Shown here in pieces: positions 23,883 through 62,315 of a DNA stretch of 64,000 nucleotides. A program made the translations under genes and the position numbers. The DNA comes from a virus (lineage: Duplodnaviria; Caudoviricetes), in IMG/VR virus record IMGVR_UViG_3300021400_000027, positions 96,001 to 160,000 of that record. The stretch is one strand, 5' to 3'. The notes under the pieces are model-generated. The model did no database searches. It saw nothing but the letters and a program-made list of their open reading frames with translations, and was not told the origin of the DNA. Every line of letters starts with the position of its first letter. Positions within the stretch are counted from its first letter, which is position 1.

Positions 23883-23956
23883 TGCCCTGTGGACAAGTGG
23901 CTTAAGTTGGGAGTCTCTAAAACTCTAAGACCTCCGTTCGAATCGGAGCAGGGCAA
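23883..23956 (+). tRNA. amber suppressor tRNA(CTA), Gln-type
   Basis: TGCCCTG/CAGGGCA acceptor (U1-A72 like tRNA-Gln at 23408); GGAGT-ctCTAaa-ACTCT with anticodon at 23917-23919; T arm CTCCG-TTCGAAT-CGGAG. Confidence 0.9.
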
Positions 23957-40819: not shown

Positions 40820-41161
40820 GGGGGCGTACTGGTTTCGACTGGTAATTAAAAATCTTGTAAGCGAGTAGGACGGGTGAAGTCCTTTTAAGCACAACCTTAA
40901 ATATAAACGCAGATTATGCAATTGCTGCCTAAGGCAGTCTTGAATTGAACGTTTAATTCGCACTTAATTAACGTTCCTCTAATTTGTTGTGCCGGCACGG
41001 GTAAATTGATTGAAAGCCTACTGCTGTAATTCTCAATCTGACTTAGAACTTGGGGTGTCAGTGACCTAAAGTTTGAACAACAAGTATTTATACTGACTAC
41101 ACTCGTAGAAAGCAAGGTCGAGGTTATTAGGACAGGAGTTCGATTCTCCTCGCCTCCACCA
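40820..41161 (+). ncRNA. ssrA: tmRNA
   Basis: GGGGGCG...TTCGAC 5' end, GGAGTTCGATTCTCC-TCGCCTCCACCA 3' end, G3-U70; resume context ATAAAC-GCA; tag ADYAIAA-TAA. Confidence 0.92.
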
Positions 41162-55922: not shown

Positions 55923-56030
55923 TAAAGGTGTCTAAAATCTGAAAAAATTAGACAGAATTATTTACCATAGCACTTTATATACGGCGGGTCAAATAATTCG
56001 CTAAATATAATAGGAAAGAGGGGATTTAAA

Positions 56031-56765
56031 TTGAGAAAGAATTCGGTCTATGCTCATACATAGACAAAAGGAAACTATAAACGTTATCAAAAAATCACGG
56101 CTAAACAATGGAAGATTTATTATTATCTATTGAGTGTTTCAAAATTCGATTCTTAGAGAGTAGAAGACCATCGTTACGTTTATAAAAATAGCTTAAATAT
56201 AAGTTAGACTTGTCGGCAGTTAGGAATCAAAAGTAATTAGACTTTTTATAATGCGATTAAACGTCTGGAAGAAGTTAATTTAATCAGGAATAATGAAAGC
56301 TACTTTCTAATTTATGCAAAAGACTGGGTCGAAATTGATAAAAGGGTTTTAGTAAATTTGCTAAATTATTCGGCACAGAAAGAGCAAGATATTGATTTGT
56401 TAAGAACTTTTCTTATTTTAAAAAAGATTTGGGTATTGGCTGAATCAAAACAAGAAATGACCTTTACTCAAAGAAATTTGGTTATGCTTCTTGGTCATAA
56501 TACAACTGATTCACCATGCTACTCTAATATCAGAATTTATTTAGCATTATTAAGTTATTGGGGGCTGATTGAGTTGAAATTGCATACTGAGTATAGTAAG
56601 GAACTTGGAAAATATACGATTTACCATTTACAAAAAATTGAAGAGGGGGAGCTCAGTCCTGATTTCGATACAGATATTGAGGCGGAAATGAAAGCAAGTG
56701 CAATGTCGGATGATTTATTTGAAAGGGTAATGTTTAAAATGCCGGAGATATTGGAAGACAAATAA
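56031..56765 (+). CDS. putative wHTH replication initiator (TAG=Gln)
   Basis: TTG after GAGGGG; 4 TAG read through into track ORF 56358; HTH-like SQTCRQLGIKSNQTFYNAIKRLEEVNLI; next to iterons. Confidence 0.65.
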
Positions 56766-56847
56766 GGTTTTGTAACTTGCGCCGCCATGCGTTAATTTAA
56801 TGGGTGGCGGCGTAACGATTTTATAAACTAAATGGGGGTGTATCTAA

Positions 56848-57255
56848 ATGGACTTTGAAATTAAGTTAAACTGCGAAAACGAAAAAATCCTTGAACGTCA
56901 ATTCTACAAGCAACGCTTTAAAGACCTTGGTGAAGTTCCTTTTCGTTCTGGAATTTTCTTCCTAAAGTTTCCAAACGGCAAATCCTATTTGGGAACTGCC
57001 GAGAACCTACGCTTTCGATTGCGCCAAATCTTTATGGACTTATTCCCAAAACCACAAACTATTGCAAGCCGGCGCAGGAACGGACAAAACCTATATAAAG
57101 AAAGGTGGATGGAGAAAGCAAGGGAAGATAATCCGGGGCTTTAGAACTATAAGGACTTGGAAATAAGGTGTATGGTTTGTAGCGTTCCGGCGCAACAAAA
57201 GAAAAGAATTTTGGGAGAGATGGAGTAGGAAGAGCGTTTACTTTACTATAATTAA
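56848..57255 (+). CDS. GIY-YIG-like protein (TAG=Gln)
   Basis: SGIFFL....KSYLG.A.NL..R; 2 TAG; TAA at 57253. Confidence 0.6.
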
Positions 57256-57689
57256 GGGGGAATGATAGTAATGGAAATTAATGGGGAGATTTCTCTGTTT
57301 AAAAGCGAAATTAAGTTGCCGGAAAAGGAGGGTAATGTGTGGAGAAATTCTGAGGTGGAAGCAGATGAAAATCCGGACTATTATTTCTCTTCCTTGTTGC
57401 TGCCGGCTTCGCAAAGTAGAGGGGTTTTGTTGTTTAAAGTAATGGGTGGCGGCGAAACGTAAAATTGAGAGAAGATTTTGAACTTAAAAAATTTCCTTAA
57501 GTTCCTTTAAGTTGTGCGTTGCGGCGAAAGGTAAGGTTAAAGAGGGTATGAAAAATTTTGAGAAAAGTTCTCCTCTCAATTACATATCTACTGAAAGTTA
57601 GGAGGGAAAAACCCTAAACTAAAGTATCTGTGTTTTAGGAGAAACTTAAAGTGTTTAAAGGGGGAGGGCTAAATTCTACTTAAAAATAG

Positions 57690-57910
57690 GGAAAGGGAAG
57701 GGGAAGGAGAAAAGAAAAGGAAGTTAAGAGGGGGAAGTTAAGAGAGGGAAGTTAAAAGAAACGAATTAAGGGGGGAGACGTTAAAAAAACGAAAGTTAAG
57801 GGTGGCGGCGAGAAACGAAGGGAAAAAATTAAGGGGGAGAAGGGAAAAGAAAAAGGAAAGGAAAGGAAAGGAACTAAAAAAAGGGGGAGAGGAAAAAACT
57901 TAAAGGGGGC
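57690..57910. repeat. purine-rich low-complexity tract with GTTAAG(G/A) repeats
   Basis: Almost exclusively G/A on the + strand. Confidence 0.75.
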
Positions 57911-57959
57911 TGTGTAAAAAGTCTATAAAAAGTAATTGTAATAGGGGGTGTGAGGAAAA

Positions 57960-58667
57960 ATGGTAGTCTACCTGTACTCAGTGAACATATAGGGGGTCAA
58001 TAATAACGTCGCTTTTCTAAAGGCATGTCCAAAGCTAATCGGAATAGGGGGTAGACCTTTAAGAAAGGGGGAGACTAAAACAATTTTGAAAGAAAATTGG
58101 GTTGAAACTATAAGTTTTTTAAAGCGAATTGAAAGGAAAAACTTTTGGGAAATTTATGAAGAATTAAGAAAACAAACGAAAGAGTTTGGTTTAAGTTGTG
58201 AATATTTGTATAAAGGAAATGTTTGTTTGTTAGCAAAAAATTAGTTGAGGTCGCAAGAAAAAATTTAGGAAAAAATTGAACATAAGGTCGTAAGAAAAAA
58301 AATTTATAGACATAAAGATTTAGTTTTAAGGAAAGCTGAAAAAAGGGATTTTGGAGATTATTGTGAAATGGGAATTTTCGAGGTCTTTAGAAATTCGAGA
58401 AGTTGGAAAAGAGAATTGGAAAGGAAAGTTAAAGAGAAAGGGAAAGTTGGATTTTTGGAAGTTGTAAATTAGTTTGATGATTGGAGAAAAGAAGATGAAG
58501 TTTGGGTTAATTAGATTTGGGAAGGAAAAATTAGAACAATTGGAAGAGTTAAAGTTGAAAATTGGGAAGAAGGAAAGAAGTTTTGGGAAAGAGGAGAATT
58601 TGGTTTAAGGGAAGAAAGAGAGTTGGAATGGTTGTGGGAAAATTTAGAGTTAGAAAAGTTTGAATAA
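57960..58667 (+). CDS. hypothetical K/E/W-rich protein, 235 aa (TAG=Gln; absent from ORF track)
   Basis: ATG after GAGG; no TAA/TGA until 58665; 5 TAG. Confidence 0.6.
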
Positions 58668-58993
58668 GGGGAAGAGGTGTTGCTTTGCCGTGTGCTCAGT
58701 AATGCCTCTTTTTTTGTTTCGCCGCGCCCCGTTCGGAATCGAAGAAAGGAAGAGGCAAAATCCGCTAATTTTCGGAGTAAAATTAAGGGTTAGGAATAGA
58801 AATCCACAATGGCTATTTTCGAGACGAAATTGGAAATAAATTAAAGGGAGTTTCACTTACGGTTTTCTATAGGGTTCCGGCGGTTTGGATTAGTAATGTT
58901 GAAAATTCGGGCGGGACCGCTTTGAGTTAAGTGGTATGAAAAATTTTGAGGGCTTCTATTCCAATCCTACTTAGTTGGTGAGCAAGAAAAAAC

Positions 58994-59124
58994 GTGGAAT
59001 GTACCCCCTCGATTTGTGGGCTAAAGGAGTTCCACCAAGTGTAGTGTACCCCCTCGATTTGTGGGCTAAAGGAGCTACACAAAGTAAAATGTACCCCCTA
59101 GAATTTGGGCTTAAGGAGTTTTAT
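58994..59124. repeat. three tandem 45-bp structured units with covarying closing stems
   Basis: Core TGTACCCCCTCGATTTGTGGGCTAAAGGAG in GTGGAA/TTCCAC, GTGTAG/CTACAC and (variant core) GTAAAA/TTTTAT. Confidence 0.8.
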
Positions 59125-60023
59125 GGCTTTACAAATTGAATAAAAGGAAGAGGGCTTTGGACAATCCGCCCGAGACAAATCAACTTCAACGAAGTTGCAA
59201 AACCGCTATTTATTTGACTTGGCGATGATTTGCAATGTTAGTTGGACTTGCGTCAATTTTTTGGGTTGTCAAAAGTTCAGGCTTCTTTTACATAGGCGGT
59301 CTCCGCCGGAACTTTTGTTTTCGGTTGGGAGACGGCCCCTTTGTCGTACCCAAACGTAGCTCACAGGGACTTCCGAATTTTGGAGAGGGAAAATTATTTT
59401 GGAGACTCAGCTCAAACGCAGCTCACAGGGAGAGGGAATGGGTTGCGCCCGGGAGAAAAATTCGGCTGCCGGCGAGGGAGAGGGGAGGGAGAGGGGGAAA
59501 CTCAATACCTACTATTTTTATGGGTTTAGTAGGTTGCGCCCGGGCGGTTTTCCAGCATTATATACAAAATAGAAGTCGAATTGTTGAAAAGTTTTTACTT
59601 GACAAATTTAGTAGAATGTGATATAATATATATAGTAAAGGAGATGAAGTTTATATGGCAACTAAATTCGTACCGCTTGACAAAATGAGTAAGAAGCAAC
59701 AACGGGAATATTATAAGAAGAAAAGAAAAACTTGGGAGTTCAATCCTGCAACACGGACGGGAAAAAGTGAATATGAATATAAGAAAAAGAAAGAAGAAAT
59801 GCAAGGAAAATGAAGAAAATGCGAGGTTTTTACCTCGCGCCCGGGCGGTTTTCGTTAAATTTAACAAAAATTTTGCGTTGCCGGCGAGAATTTTATGCAA
59901 TTCGGAGATTTGACTTAAAAACTATTGACAAACTCTTTAAAATGTGATATAATTATATATGTAAGGAGGACGGAAAGCAAGGCGACTGGAAGTCCTAAAG
60001 CCCAAATCAGCGAGGTATTGAAA

Positions 60024-60182
60024 ATGGCTAAAGGTGTAATCTTTACAGGTACGGACGGCAAGAAAACCAGAATGAACCGTGACGAATTTGTTCGTTATAT
60101 CGGCAACCTCTGGAAGGTGGCAAGAGAGGCTAAACTTGAAGCCGAAAAGGCAGACAAGGAAATCGAGGAGAATGGCGAATAA
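60024..60182 (+). CDS. small early-type protein
   Basis: TTGACA/TATAAT promoter upstream, RBS GAGGT. Confidence 0.55.
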   Translation: MAKGVIFTGTDGKKTRMNRDEFVRYIGNLWKVAREAKLEAEKADKEIEENGE

Positions 60183-60219
60183 TCGCCATTTTCCCACAAT
60201 TAGAAAGAGAGGTTATTCA

Positions 60220-60480
60220 ATGAAGTGTTTTGTTTATAATAGAGCAAGAATGATAATTGCACGGAAGTCCGCTTTAGAAGATATGCGGAAATGGAGAGAA
60301 AACAAGGGTTATTTAGATAGGGATTTAATTAGAATTTTTATTGCTAATAATCTTAACAGACTCTTTGGTGCGGAATGCTGGGATAGTAACGTTGTTGACG
60401 GCATTTTGTGCGATATGCTGGACAATTTTGACATTGACTATGATGATGATGCAGATGATTATTATGTAAGCTCCCCTTGA
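60220..60480 (+). CDS. hypothetical protein with acidic tail
   Basis: Start moved to ATG after GAGG. Confidence 0.55.
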   Translation: MKCFVYNRARMIIARKSALEDMRKWRENKGYLDRDLIRIFIANNLNRLFGAECWDSNVVDGILCDMLDNFDIDYDDDADDYYVSSP

Positions 60481-60516
60481 TGGGGAGTTTTCTCTATATA
60501 TAGCCAAAATTACGTT

Positions 60517-60624
60517 GCGCCCGGGCGCGTAGTGAAAATGAACAAATTCAACATTAAAACTTTGTGCAACTTGCCAGTTGACAAATTTCAAAAAGTATGA
60601 TATAATATATAATGTAAGGTAAAG
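60517..60624 (+). promoter_or_regulatory. early-type promoter cassette, copy A
   Basis: GCGCCCGGGCGC, 34-bp block shared with copy B, TTGACA, TGnTATAAT, ATGTAAGGTAAAG. Confidence 0.75.
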
Positions 60625-60652
60625 AGAAACTAAGAAAGTGGAGGTAAAACTT

Positions 60653-60919
60653 ATGAAGAAATTTCAAATCAATGTGAGAGGAGAGGAGAGAGGTCATCTT
60701 TTTGACAGCATTGGTCAGGCTTATCAGTGGACTTGCGAAAACGTAATGACAAAAGAAGATGCAGAATATTATAAGTCAATTGGAAATACAATTGAACTTC
60801 CTCAAATTCAAGACGAAAAAATTCAAGAATCCGTTTTAAGAAACGTGTTTGAAAAAATCTGCTTTTCCGGCTGGAATGATAGAGTAGATTTGAACTCTGA
60901 TTATTTTATTATTCATTAA
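60653..60919 (+). CDS. hypothetical protein
   Basis: RBS GGAGGT. Confidence 0.55.
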   Translation: MKKFQINVRGEERGHLFDSIGQAYQWTCENVMTKEDAEYYKSIGNTIELPQIQDEKIQESVLRNVFEKICFSGWNDRVDLNSDYFIIH

Positions 60920-60939
60920 ATTTTAGAAAGTAGAGGATT

Positions 60940-61320
60940 ATGCCAATGAGAGAAATTTTTGGACTTAGCGAAAAAAGAATTCAGCAACTTTTAACAGAGG
61001 ATATTCCAATTTCAAAACTTGCACAATTGGAAAAAGCGGAATTCCTTCTTGCTACATGGGGCATTGATGGCTATGCATTACTTTATTATATTGATAGCAC
61101 AAAAGACGAATATAAAGAAATGTACTTTGATACTTTTTTAACTAAGTGTAGACCTTGTGGCGGAGATTGGGGACAAATGTTCTTAACTGGAATTAAAGAA
61201 CTTTATCCAACTATTTACAATTTAATTCCTGATGATATGGGCTTGAATCCGTTTGCTAGTTTGTACGAATTATTGAGAGTTTTAGGCATTGAAAAGTGTT
61301 TAGAAGAAAGTGGCGAATAA
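60940..61320 (+). CDS. hypothetical protein
   Basis: RBS GAGG; CGGDWG motif. Confidence 0.55.
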   Translation: MPMREIFGLSEKRIQQLLTEDIPISKLAQLEKAEFLLATWGIDGYALLYYIDSTKDEYKEMYFDTFLTKCRPCGGDWGQMFLTGIKELYPTIYNLIPDDMGLNPFASLYELLRVLGIEKCLEESGE

Positions 61321-61361
61321 TCGCCACTTTTACTTTATTTAAGTTAGCAAAGACTAACTCT

Positions 61362-61467
61362 GCGCCCGGGCGGCACAAAAATGAACAAATTCAACATTAA
61401 AACTTTGTGCATTTTGCGAATAGACAAAAACTAAAAAGTGTGTTATAATATATAATGTAAGGTAAAG
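61362..61467 (+). promoter_or_regulatory. early-type promoter cassette, copy B
   Basis: Near copy of 60517-60624. Confidence 0.75.
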
Positions 61468-61496
61468 TACAATAGCACAGAAATTGAGGTATTTTT

Positions 61497-61802
61497 ATGA
61501 CAGTATATGAAAAGAATTTCTATAAGAAAACAAGTCAAGATTATGTTTCTCATGACTTTTATATCTATTTTATTCTTACTATGCCTCCGCTTTTATCTAA
61601 AGAGGACTATTTAAAAGAAATCAGTAGAAGTCAATTTTTTCTAAATAGTAATTCAATAAGAGTTCTTAAGCCAATGACGAAATATAAATTCTTAACAATC
61701 TCAACCACGCTTAACGATAAAAACTATTTAATTAAACATATTAACAATTGTAAAATTAAAATGAATACTTTAAAACAACGCAGTTGGAAAAAAGCTCCTT
61801 AA
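61497..61802 (+). CDS. hypothetical protein
   Basis: RBS GAGGT. Confidence 0.5.
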   Translation: MTVYEKNFYKKTSQDYVSHDFYIYFILTMPPLLSKEDYLKEISRSQFFLNSNSIRVLKPMTKYKFLTISTTLNDKNYLIKHINNCKIKMNTLKQRSWKKAP

Positions 61803-61910
61803 TGGGGCTTTCTTTGAATCTTAAAATTGTTGCGCCCGGGCGCAACAGAAGTTTACCTAGGAGAATACTAGGAATTAAAAAACTAAGAAAAGCCCCGAAG
61901 GGCTTTCTTG

Positions 61911-62315
61911 TCAATCATCAATTATAATTGCAGTACAGATTTTAATAATAGGATTTGCATTGTTGCTTGTTTGTTCTGCTAATGGCTTGTAAGCACTCTT
62001 TGAAAAGCGTGTTATTTTCATGAAATTATCTTCGAACCATTCATAAACGTCATCACAAGAAGCGAATTCAATATTATAACGTTCCTGAATATAGTCAACA
62101 AGATAATCCCAATCATCTTCATTGACAGAATAATATTCATCTCCTATTAAGGATATTGCTAAATCTCGATAAGCAAATTTTACCTTATTGTCATAATTCT
62201 TAATCATAAACTGATTGGTGATAGCTTTTTCAAGTTCATCATGGTCATAGAACTTTTGAGCGATAACTTTACCATTTTCAGGGATAACAATTGTAATTAT
62301 ATACATAGAATACAC
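61911..62315 (-). CDS. hypothetical protein (only credible minus-strand gene)
   Basis: Reverse-strand TTGACA/TATAAT/GTAAGGTAAAG promoter at about 62354-62400; hairpin terminator near 61886-61908. Confidence 0.7.
   Translation of the reverse strand: MYSMYIITIVIPENGKVIAQKFYDHDELEKAITNQFMIKNYDNKVKFAYRDLAISLIGDEYYSVNEDDWDYLVDYIQERYNIEFASCDDVYEWFEDNFMKITRFSKSAYKPLAEQTSNNANPIIKICTAIIIDD

What the first reader, a model, noticed from the sequence alone, without database searches (positions are those of the whole stretch)
58994..59124. Triple tandem structured motif: constant core, swapped closing stems
Seen: three units at 45-bp spacing. The 30-nt core is identical in copies 1 and 2 and similar in copy 3, but the flanking hexamers differ while staying complementary (GTGGAA/TTCCAC, GTGTAG/CTACAC, GTAAAA/TTTTAT). 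Inside the core, CCC/GGG and CCT/AGG could form a small pseudoknot. This is selection on single-stranded structure, not simple slippage. It lies in a non-coding zone between the origin region and the early cassettes. Inference: tandem aptamer, protein-binding RNA, small ribozyme or ssDNA signal. I cannot match it to a family I know.
Basis: seen in the sequence. Interest (0 to 1): 0.75.

Follow-up and report, generated by a model that had tools for sequence, protein, structure and literature searches.

The report
Tandem hairpin modules in phage RNA
A large cattle- and sheep-gut phage makes an abundant non-coding RNA that starts with two to four copies of a small folded module, each with the same core but its own matching closing stem; the module matches no known RNA family and what it does is not yet known.

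Summary
Three 45-bp units (58994-59035, 59039-59080, 59084-59124) share a 29-30-nt core, and each is closed by a different complementary hexamer pair. The window is part of a 179.8-kb TAG-recoded phage from ruminant gut.

- **Variants:** thirteen distinct units from natural variants give five different closing stems. All of them pair, with G·U only on the + strand: 63 Watson-Crick, 21 G·U and 7 mismatches, against 63/1/27 on the - strand.
- **Copy number:** it varies from 2 to at least 4. Some units have a 44-nt period and one variant has lost the ATG, which rules out a coding repeat.
- **Cassette swap:** in two variants the whole array is replaced by an unrelated ~190-nt cassette between conserved flanks.
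- **Expression:** in metatranscriptome assemblies from two samples, the only exact RNA contigs in 6 kb cover 59008-59343. That span is the array, a conserved 150-nt hairpin and a terminator.
- **Searches:** there is no Rfam match. There is no homolog in IMG/VR, JGI metagenomes outside this lineage, 185,579 species genomes or three related phages.

The function is inferred. The most likely role is a multivalent decoy or binding array at the 5' end of a stable ncRNA. Rivals are a 5' stabiliser and an aptamer array.

The parts
58994..59035 (+). Unit 1: closing stem GTGGAA/TTCCAC plus a U·G pair, around a 30-nt type A core
59039..59080 (+). Unit 2: closing stem GTGTAG/CTACAC around a type A core. 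Variants carry GTGTGG (G·U kept) or ATGTAG (terminal pair lost), and some have a type B core.
59084..59124 (+). Unit 3: closing stem GTAAAA/TTTTAT (terminal G·U) around a 29-nt type B core
58993..59130 (+). The swappable cassette. This span holds 2, 3 or at least 4 units in variants, and in L150 and L155 it is replaced by an unrelated ~190-nt sequence between conserved flanks.
59008..59343 (+). Span covered by the only exact-match RNA contigs in 56000-62000, from two metatranscriptomes. Contigs carry no strand; the + strand is inferred from G·U pairs.
59141..59290 (+). Conserved long imperfect hairpin (the scaffold). It has one compensatory pair, 59204/59224 (C-G to U-A), and eight G·U pairs that exist only on the + strand.
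59295..59337 (+). Terminator-like hairpin followed by CCTTTG. Positions 59309 and 59310 swap G·U and A-U with their partners, which keeps the pairs only on the + strand. The RNA contigs end at 59329 and 59343.

Best explanation
The three units are independently folding hairpin modules of a + strand non-coding RNA. Shown: each module is a 6-7-bp closing stem whose sequence is free but whose pairing is kept, and it encloses a constant 29-30-nt core. Predicted only, because these bases never vary: the core folds as an internal loop (GUA opposite A), two C-G pairs, a 5-nt bulge (CU[A/U]AA), three C-G pairs and a variable 8-9-nt loop. The modules form the 5' domain of an abundant RNA of roughly 350 nt, which continues into a conserved 150-nt hairpin and ends at a terminator hairpin. 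Shown: the structure, the strand, the presence as RNA, the variation in copy number and the replacement of the cassette. Inferred: the array works as a multivalent binding site, a decoy or sponge that presents the same core several times to one protein. That protein is most plausibly a host RNA-binding or RNA-cutting factor that the phage needs to neutralise. The different closing stems would keep neighbouring identical cores from mispairing and hold each module in register. Changes in copy number and swapping of the cassette would then be the trace of an arms race, as with the pseudo-ToxI repeats of phage PhiTE.
For: Structure: five different arm pairs are all complementary, and the covariation beats 500 of 500 shuffles and every slid register. 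All differences between core types A, B and C fall in the predicted loop or bulge. Two-unit variants carry a chimeric last unit whose 3' arm reads TTTCAT or TTCCAT. These look like steps from a G·U-rich stem toward G-C pairs.

Strand: closing stems score 63 WC, 21 GU and 7 mismatches on the + strand against 63/1/27 on the - strand. The scaffold's consensus energy is -68.9 on + and -49.3 on -.

Expression: the only 100%-matching RNA contigs in 6 kb are 59008-59329 in X17, and 59025-59170 plus 59141-59343 in X19. The X19 contig carries sample S2's own 59282 C>T variant. The flanks are silent although the DNA depth in X2, the same sample as X19, is about 311x.

Not coding: 44-nt periods, ATG changed to ACG in L068, and arrays of 2 to at least 4 units.

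Hypervariable locus: the cassette is replaced in L150 and L155. X2 has 12 differences in 58951-58990 and none in 58991-59281.

Analogy: PhiTE pseudo-ToxI has invariant flanks, 1.5 to 5.5 repeats and unit variants differing by 1 nt (PMC3475682).
Against: No binding partner has been identified. No similar array was found in 185,579 species genomes, so mimicry of a known host RNA is not shown. The inner helices never vary, so the fold of the core is prediction only. At equilibrium the modular fold (-30.8 kcal/mol) does not beat an alternative long-range fold (-32.1), and unit 3's stem has a probability of only about 0.1. Single units do not fold better than shuffled sequence (z -1.0 to +0.1). No sigma-70 promoter was found upstream, and the 5' end is known only to within about 15 nt. 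Contigs give neither strand nor abundance. Each core contains an AAGGAG Shine-Dalgarno-like run, and the replacement cassette is also rich in TAAGG motifs. That fits a simpler stabiliser role.
Confidence: 0.4

Rival explanations
1. 5' stabiliser. The hairpins and their Shine-Dalgarno-like AAGGAG runs protect the downstream scaffold RNA from 5'-to-3' decay by RNase J1-type enzymes. They would do this as structural roadblocks and by binding 30S subunits without translation, as STAB-SD elements do in Bacillus.
For: The array lies at the 5' end of the RNA-covered span. Every core keeps AAGGAG or TAAGGAG. The unrelated replacement cassette shares only repeated TAAGG-type motifs. Nineteen early promoters of this phage are followed at once by TAAGGTAAA. 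Blocking of RNase J1 by ribosomes at strong SD sequences and by 5' structure is established (PMC3997798, PMC5737220, PMC4113751).
Against: A roadblock does not need a 30-nt invariant core or several copies. The AAGGAG is largely base-paired in the predicted fold. The host, and whether it has RNase J, is unknown.
Confidence: 0.2
2. Tandem ligand-sensing aptamers (a riboswitch-like array). Each module would bind a small molecule and control access to its own Shine-Dalgarno run, or termination downstream.
For: The anatomy is typical of small aptamers: a covarying P1, conserved internal-loop bases, a variable terminal loop, and an SD run in the 3' half that is partly sequestered. Unit 3's AAGGAG lies 4 nt before an ATG.
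Against: There is no gene to regulate. The ORF after unit 3 is 6 codons in the window and about 30 in L068, so it is not conserved. The terminator is 200 nt away. Copy number varies and the whole array can be replaced. There is no Rfam riboswitch match at E up to 10.
Confidence: 0.1
3. Specific case of the decoy idea: a mimic of a type III toxin-antitoxin RNA antitoxin, or of another RNA substrate of a host RNase. It would soak up a ToxN/CptN/TenpN-like abortive-infection nuclease.
For: The tandem repeats are 44-45 nt, the same length as CptI (PMC4627078). The linkers between units are CAA, AAA or TTT. The core is conserved and the flanks vary, as in tenpI (PMC12283969). Copy-number changes and mosaic units match pseudo-ToxI (PMC3475682).
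Against: There is no toxin gene next to the array, and no ToxN domain anywhere in the phage. The unit ends are base-paired instead of forming the single-stranded tails the toxins cut. The candidate pseudoknot has no L1 linker. No host array with this core was found.
Confidence: 0.1
4. DNA-level or single-stranded-DNA signal, such as lagging-strand priming, packaging or a partition site, linked to the nearby Rep-like gene and its iterons.
For: The array is 2.2 kb downstream of a Rep/O-like gene at 56031-56765, which an earlier scan note (e1-5933933) places behind iterons; I did not check the iterons. G·T wobble pairs are also tolerated in ssDNA hairpins.
Against: The region is present as RNA while its flanks are not. 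A duplex-DNA binding site would not need complementary flanks of free sequence. The adjoining scaffold and terminator are RNA-type features on the same strand.
Confidence: 0.05
5. A repeat inside a small protein-coding gene: the 67-aa ORF at 58936-59139 read with TAG=Q, with a 15-aa peptide repeat.
For: The 45-bp period is a multiple of 3, and the frame is open with one TAG.
Against: Unit 3's 1-nt deletion already changes the frame. Variants have 44-nt periods, the start codon is ACG in L068, and copy number runs from 2 to at least 4. There is no family hit. Coding does not explain the complementary flanks.
Confidence: 0.02

Closest known systems
Pseudo-ToxI repeats of Pectobacterium phage PhiTE (RNA mimic of the ToxI type III antitoxin; PMC3475682)
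   Same: A non-coding tandem repeat in a phage intergenic locus with invariant flanks. It is expressed as RNA. Copy number varies between isolates, and there are mosaic units and unit variants differing by 1 nt.
   Different: Pseudo-ToxI units are 36 nt, nearly identical throughout, form pseudoknots with single-stranded tails, and closely resemble a known host antitoxin. Here the unit ends are paired by unit-specific stems, and no host counterpart or toxin is known.
CptI antitoxin RNA of CptIN (Eubacterium rectale; PMC4627078)
   Same: A 45-nt repeat unit, tandem copies, a gut Firmicute setting, and a short GC-rich helix next to an A-rich stretch.
   Different: CptI is an H-type pseudoknot, lies upstream of the cptN toxin gene, and is cut out by the toxin. 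There is no sequence similarity, no toxin gene and no supported pseudoknot here.
CsrB/RsmZ-type protein-sponge RNAs (from general knowledge)
   Same: An abundant RNA of about 350 nt with several hairpin modules, each showing a GGA-containing purine run, ending in a terminator.
   Different: In those RNAs the GGA sits in the hairpin loops and the stems are short. Here AAGGAG is mostly paired, no CsrA gene is in the phage, and the host is unknown.
STAB-SD and 5' hairpin stabilisers of Bacillus mRNAs (PMC4113751, PMC3997798)
   Same: Shine-Dalgarno-like runs and stable hairpins at the 5' end of a long-lived RNA, with no ORF to translate.
   Different: Known stabilisers are single short elements. 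They are not arrays of a 42-nt module with an invariant core.
RNA anti-CRISPRs (Racr, solitary CRISPR repeat units in phages; PMC10651486)
   Same: A small, highly expressed phage RNA that could compete for a host RNA-binding defence protein. The 30-nt conserved unit has a short C/G stem.
   Different: No CRISPR array with this repeat was found in the genome or metagenome scans. The 15-nt segments between cores pair with each other, which CRISPR spacers do not do.

Membership tests
Any Rfam 15 family | Covariance-model match on either strand | tested here: not met
   cmscan of 57000-61000 at E up to 10 gives nothing at the array. The replacement cassette in L150 and L155 also has no match.
Type III antitoxin RNA (ToxI/CptI/TenpI) | Tandem direct repeats of about 34-45 nt | tested here: met
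   44-45-nt period, 2 to at least 4 copies.
Type III antitoxin RNA (ToxI/CptI/TenpI) | Terminator and then an endoribonuclease toxin gene immediately downstream | tested here: not met
   No ORF with a family hit under codes 11, TAG=Q or TGA=W. PF13958 is absent from the whole phage. PADLOC finds nothing in the neighbours.
Type III antitoxin RNA (ToxI/CptI/TenpI) | H-type pseudoknot with single-stranded 5' and 3' tails that are cut by the toxin | tested here: not met
   The unit ends form covarying closing stems. The candidate pseudoknot pairs are invariant and leave a zero-length first loop.
Phage mimic of a host RNA (pseudo-ToxI, Racr) | Close sequence similarity to a host antitoxin array or CRISPR repeat | tested here: not met
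   An exact-motif scan of 185,579 species genomes gave 36 single, non-tandem hits with no closing stems. One hit lies in what reads as a gene. The test is limited to near-identical cores.
Riboswitch | Aptamer coupled to an expression platform that controls a downstream gene | tested here: not met
   There is no conserved ORF before the terminator at 59295-59337.
CsrB/RsmZ-like sponge | Multiple GGA motifs exposed in hairpin loops, and a cognate CsrA protein | tested here: inconclusive
   AAGGAG is present in every unit but is predicted to be mostly paired. No CsrA gene is in the phage. The host is unknown.
5' stabiliser (STAB-SD type) | An SD-like run or hairpin at the RNA 5' end that lengthens half-life in a host with RNase J | not testable with these tools
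   The position and motif fit, but the half-life and the host cannot be examined.

The most novel reading that the evidence does not exclude
The array is a new kind of phage RNA-based anti-defence element. It would be a multi-copy structured decoy that neutralises a host RNA-binding or RNA-cutting immune protein. It sits as a swappable payload on a conserved RNA scaffold, and natural variants change its dose or exchange the payload.
Probability: 0.2. Interest if true: 0.8.

Novelty: new variant of a known kind. Interest (0 to 1): 0.55.

Why it matters
Few phage non-coding RNAs have both natural covariation and expression evidence. This one has an unusually clear design: identical cores insulated by unit-specific stems, carried on a conserved scaffold, at a locus where copy number changes and the whole payload can be exchanged. 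If the modules bind a host factor, this would add a structured-RNA example to the short list of RNA-based phage counter-measures (pseudo-ToxI, Racr). It would also offer a compact natural multivalent RNA scaffold. If the array is only a stabiliser, it still shows how a phage of ruminant-gut bacteria builds a very stable RNA. Either way the element is confined, as far as the searches reach, to one phage lineage of ruminant gut.

Tried and rejected
- **Rfam:** searched on both strands with no hit.
- **Covariance model R1:** built from the three units, it found only its own copies in the phage and none in three related phage genomes. A DNA search of those genomes also found nothing.
- **IMG/VR scans:** the strict motif gave 0 hits. 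A relaxed motif gave 37 single high-GC hits without stems. A scaffold 24-mer gave 0 hits.
- **Genome scan:** only chance hits, one of them in a region that reads as a gene and that I took, by reading it, for an alcohol dehydrogenase.
- **Synteny with relatives:** relatives of the Rep-like gene (46-59% identity) have no syntenic array. A relative search with ORF 60940-61320 found nothing.
- **- strand reading:** considered seriously because it gives a longer inner helix with three G·U pairs, a U·G to A-U change between core types, and a U-run after unit 1. Rejected because core type C breaks that pair, the variants weaken the U-run, and the G·U statistics favour the + strand 21 to 1.
- **Promoter upstream of the array:** none is convincing. 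TGGTATGAA at 58932-58940 is not a recurring promoter element.
- **Antisense targets in the phage genome:** the longest complementarity is 12 nt, which is chance level.
- **CRISPR-repeat idea (Cas13a-like):** this came from memory only. No array was found in the scans, so it was dropped.
- **Neighbouring 235-aa protein:** no family hit. The AlphaFold model has pLDDT 45 and is unusable. Its homologs' contigs are too short, and one look-up failed.
- **RNA cover gaps:** parts of 56000-62000 without RNA contigs are used only as an internal contrast to the covered span, not as proof that they are silent.
- **Unaligned contig end:** thirty letters at one end of the X19 contig that stops at 59343 do not match the window. 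I could not read them.

Full report
**What is there.** The window is bases 96001-160000 of a 179,787-bp IMG/VR phage record with direct terminal repeats. The genome has about 35% G+C, and nearly all genes lie on the + strand. It carries 25 tRNA genes, a tmRNA and a suppressor tRNA with anticodon CTA.

- Read with TAG=Q, several otherwise broken frames open. These include a Rep/O-like winged-helix gene at 56031-56765 and a 235-aa gene at 57960-58667.
- Public runs that hold this stretch come from bovine, sheep and other animal gut samples.
- The finding lies in about 1 kb without credible ORFs, between the terminator of the 235-aa gene (about 58672-58712, read) and a perfect TTGACA-17-TATAAT promoter at 59599-59627.

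**The observation.** Tandem Repeats Finder reports a 45-bp period, 2.8 copies and a score of 176.

- Units 1 and 2 share an identical 30-nt core, which no shuffle reproduced. Unit 3 has a 29-nt core with four differences.
A further U·G pair extends each stem to 7 bp.

**Relatives and variants.** Three related phage genomes (Rep-like protein 46-59% identical) lack the element.

- Exact-pattern scans of IMG/VR gave nothing real.
- The JGI metagenome scan returned three contigs with tandem copies (L064, L068, L100) among 50 chance hits.
- Looking up contigs that encode the identical 52-aa protein 530 nt downstream gave ten more loci from separate samples.

These are close variants of the same phage, but their arrays differ:

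| Loci | Array |
|---|---|
| window, L064, L146, L147, L149 | u1(A) u2(A) u3(B) |
| L068 | u1(A) u2(B) u3(B) |
| L100 | at least four units, all type B, 44-nt period, with an extra first unit u0 |
| L148, L151 | two units: u0 and a chimeric last unit |
| L152-L154 | u2 with 5' arm GTGTGG |

In L150 and L155 the whole array is absent. An unrelated sequence of about 190 nt fills the same gap between conserved flanks, which end near 58992 and resume near 59131.

**Structure.** Thirteen distinct units were aligned and the nested structure was counted.

- The closing stem has three pairs with changes on both sides (15 cells), and 95.5% of cells are paired against 30-52% in slid registers.
- No shuffle out of 500 reached the observed covariation score or the observed paired fraction.
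- Five different arm pairs exist. The u0 arm pairs in a register shifted by one base, as 8 bp with three G·U pairs.
- The chimeric last unit of the two-unit arrays has 5' arm GTGGAA and 3' arm TTTCAT (L148) or TTCCAT (L151). These look like successive U-to-C steps from a G·U-rich stem toward G-C pairs.
- All differences between core types A, B and C lie in the predicted terminal loop or the 5-nt bulge.
- The two inner helices (2 and 3 C-G pairs) never vary, so they are prediction only. It would also leave no nucleotide between its two 5' strands, which makes it sterically doubtful (inference).

**Strand.** I first took the - strand seriously. Single units fold slightly better there, an inner helix with three G·U pairs can form, and unit 1 is followed by a U-run. 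The variants decide against it.

- Closing stems score 63 Watson-Crick, 21 G·U and 7 mismatches on the + strand, against 63, 1 and 27 on the - strand.
- Core type C breaks the - strand pair that had seemed to covary.
- The variants interrupt the U-run.
- The conserved 217 nt downstream fold far better on the + strand, with a consensus energy of -68.9 against -49.3 kcal/mol. They have one compensatory pair (59204/59224), and G·U to A-U swaps in the terminator hairpin that keep pairing only on the + strand.

**Expression.** Logan contigs of two metatranscriptomes were laid on 56000-62000. The two RNA runs come from samples S1 and S2 of one study: S1 may be the source of this DNA, and S2 also gave the DNA run X2.

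- Of the 11 RNA contigs laid, three match exactly or with one sample-specific difference: 59008-59329 (X17), 59025-59170 and 59141-59343 (X19).
- The other eight are short stretches with 4-8 mismatches.
- The X19 contig carries 59282 C>T, which is the variant of that sample's own phage DNA.
- DNA depth in X2, the run from X19's sample, is about 311x and even across the stretch, so DNA carry-over would not pick out these 335 nt.
- Contigs give no strand, no ends and no level, so the 5' end is known only to lie at or before 59008.
- That 5' limit agrees with two independent boundaries. The left edge of the swappable cassette is near 58993. The point where the X2 variant changes from 12 differences in 40 nt to none in 290 nt is 58991.
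- The 3' ends agree with the terminator hairpin at 59295-59337.

**Not coding.** A 67-aa frame (TAG=Q) spans the array. However, unit 3's deletion shifts the frame, the 44-nt units of L068 and L100 do the same, L068 has ACG for the start codon, and copy number varies.

**What it does.** Nothing in Rfam matches. I tested three named analogies.

*Type III antitoxin arrays.* They share the repeat length (CptI is 45 nt, PMC4627078) and the population behaviour of PhiTE's pseudo-ToxI: invariant flanks, 1.5 to 5.5 copies, and 1-nt unit variants (PMC3475682). Against this:
- There is no toxin gene.
- The unit ends are paired, where the toxins need single-stranded tails.
- No host array with this core exists in 185,579 species genomes.

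*RNA anti-CRISPRs.* This fails on the same scan.

*5' stabiliser.* This is a real rival:
- The array is at the 5' end.
- Every core holds AAGGAG.
- The replacement cassette shares only TAAGG-type motifs.
- This phage's early transcripts all begin with TAAGGTAAA.
- SD-bound ribosomes and 5' structure are known to block RNase J1 (PMC3997798, PMC5737220).

A stabiliser does not explain a 30-nt invariant core in several insulated copies.

I therefore rank the readings as follows: a multivalent binding or decoy array 0.4, of which the type III-like case is a part listed separately at 0.1; stabiliser 0.2; aptamer array 0.1; DNA-level signal 0.05; coding 0.02. The remainder is unassigned. The idea that distinct stems prevent mispairing between identical cores is inference. 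At equilibrium the modular fold (-30.8 kcal/mol) is close to, but does not beat, a long-range alternative (-32.1), so folding during transcription would have to favour it.

**Verdict.** This is a real, expressed, + strand structured RNA array with natural covariation. It is new to Rfam and to every collection searched, and it is confined to one ruminant-gut phage lineage. The mechanism remains open. An earlier scan note on another genome (e1-1906874) suggested antisense hairpin arrays. I tested that here and found no target.

Noticed in passing
window 23883-23956: A suppressor tRNA with anticodon CTA (ARAGORN labels it Pyl). Several genes, including 56031-56765 and 57960-58667, open only when TAG is read as a residue, so the phage recodes TAG.
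   Followed up: partly
L150:1782-1981 and L155:1786-1978: In two variants an unrelated ~190-nt cassette replaces the array between conserved flanks. It begins with 2-3 short TTAA(A)GGTAA repeats and has no Rfam match. It may be a second payload for the same RNA scaffold.
   Followed up: partly
window 59141-59290: A conserved 150-nt imperfect hairpin just after the array, with one compensatory pair (59204/59224). It is the constant part of the RNA and has no known family.
   Followed up: partly
window 59470-59500: A purine tract with four or more runs of G3-G5 (a GAGGGAGAGGGG-type repeat). It is a possible G-quadruplex on the + strand, conserved in variants, just upstream of the first early promoter. 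Its GAGGGGG is complementary to the CCCCCTC of the type A core.
   Followed up: no
window 59351-59369 and 59413-59431; also genome 2901, 175445, 175489: A repeated motif AAACG(T/C)AGCTCACAG, always on the + strand, in intergenic DNA including the genome ends. Its function is unknown.
   Followed up: partly
window 59375-59387: The near-palindrome TCCGAATTTTGGA becomes TCTAAATTTTAGA in L068, with compensatory changes. It is a small hairpin or an operator-like site.
   Followed up: no
whole genome, e.g. window 60615, 61458, 62626: Nineteen early promoters (TTGACA, TGnTATAAT) are followed 7-8 nt later by TAAGGTAAA. Early transcripts therefore share a 5' leader motif that resembles the 5' half of a Shine-Dalgarno sequence.
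   Followed up: partly
window 58951-58966: A 16-nt block just upstream of the array comes in two unrelated versions among otherwise near-identical variants. The second version forms an AGTAG/CTACT hairpin.
   Followed up: no
window 40820-41161: A phage-encoded tmRNA with tag peptide ADYAIAA.
   Followed up: no
window 59343 (X19 contig): The RNA contig that ends at 59343 carries 30 further letters that do not match the phage DNA. They could be a non-templated tail, an adaptor or an assembly chimera. I could not read them.
   Followed up: no
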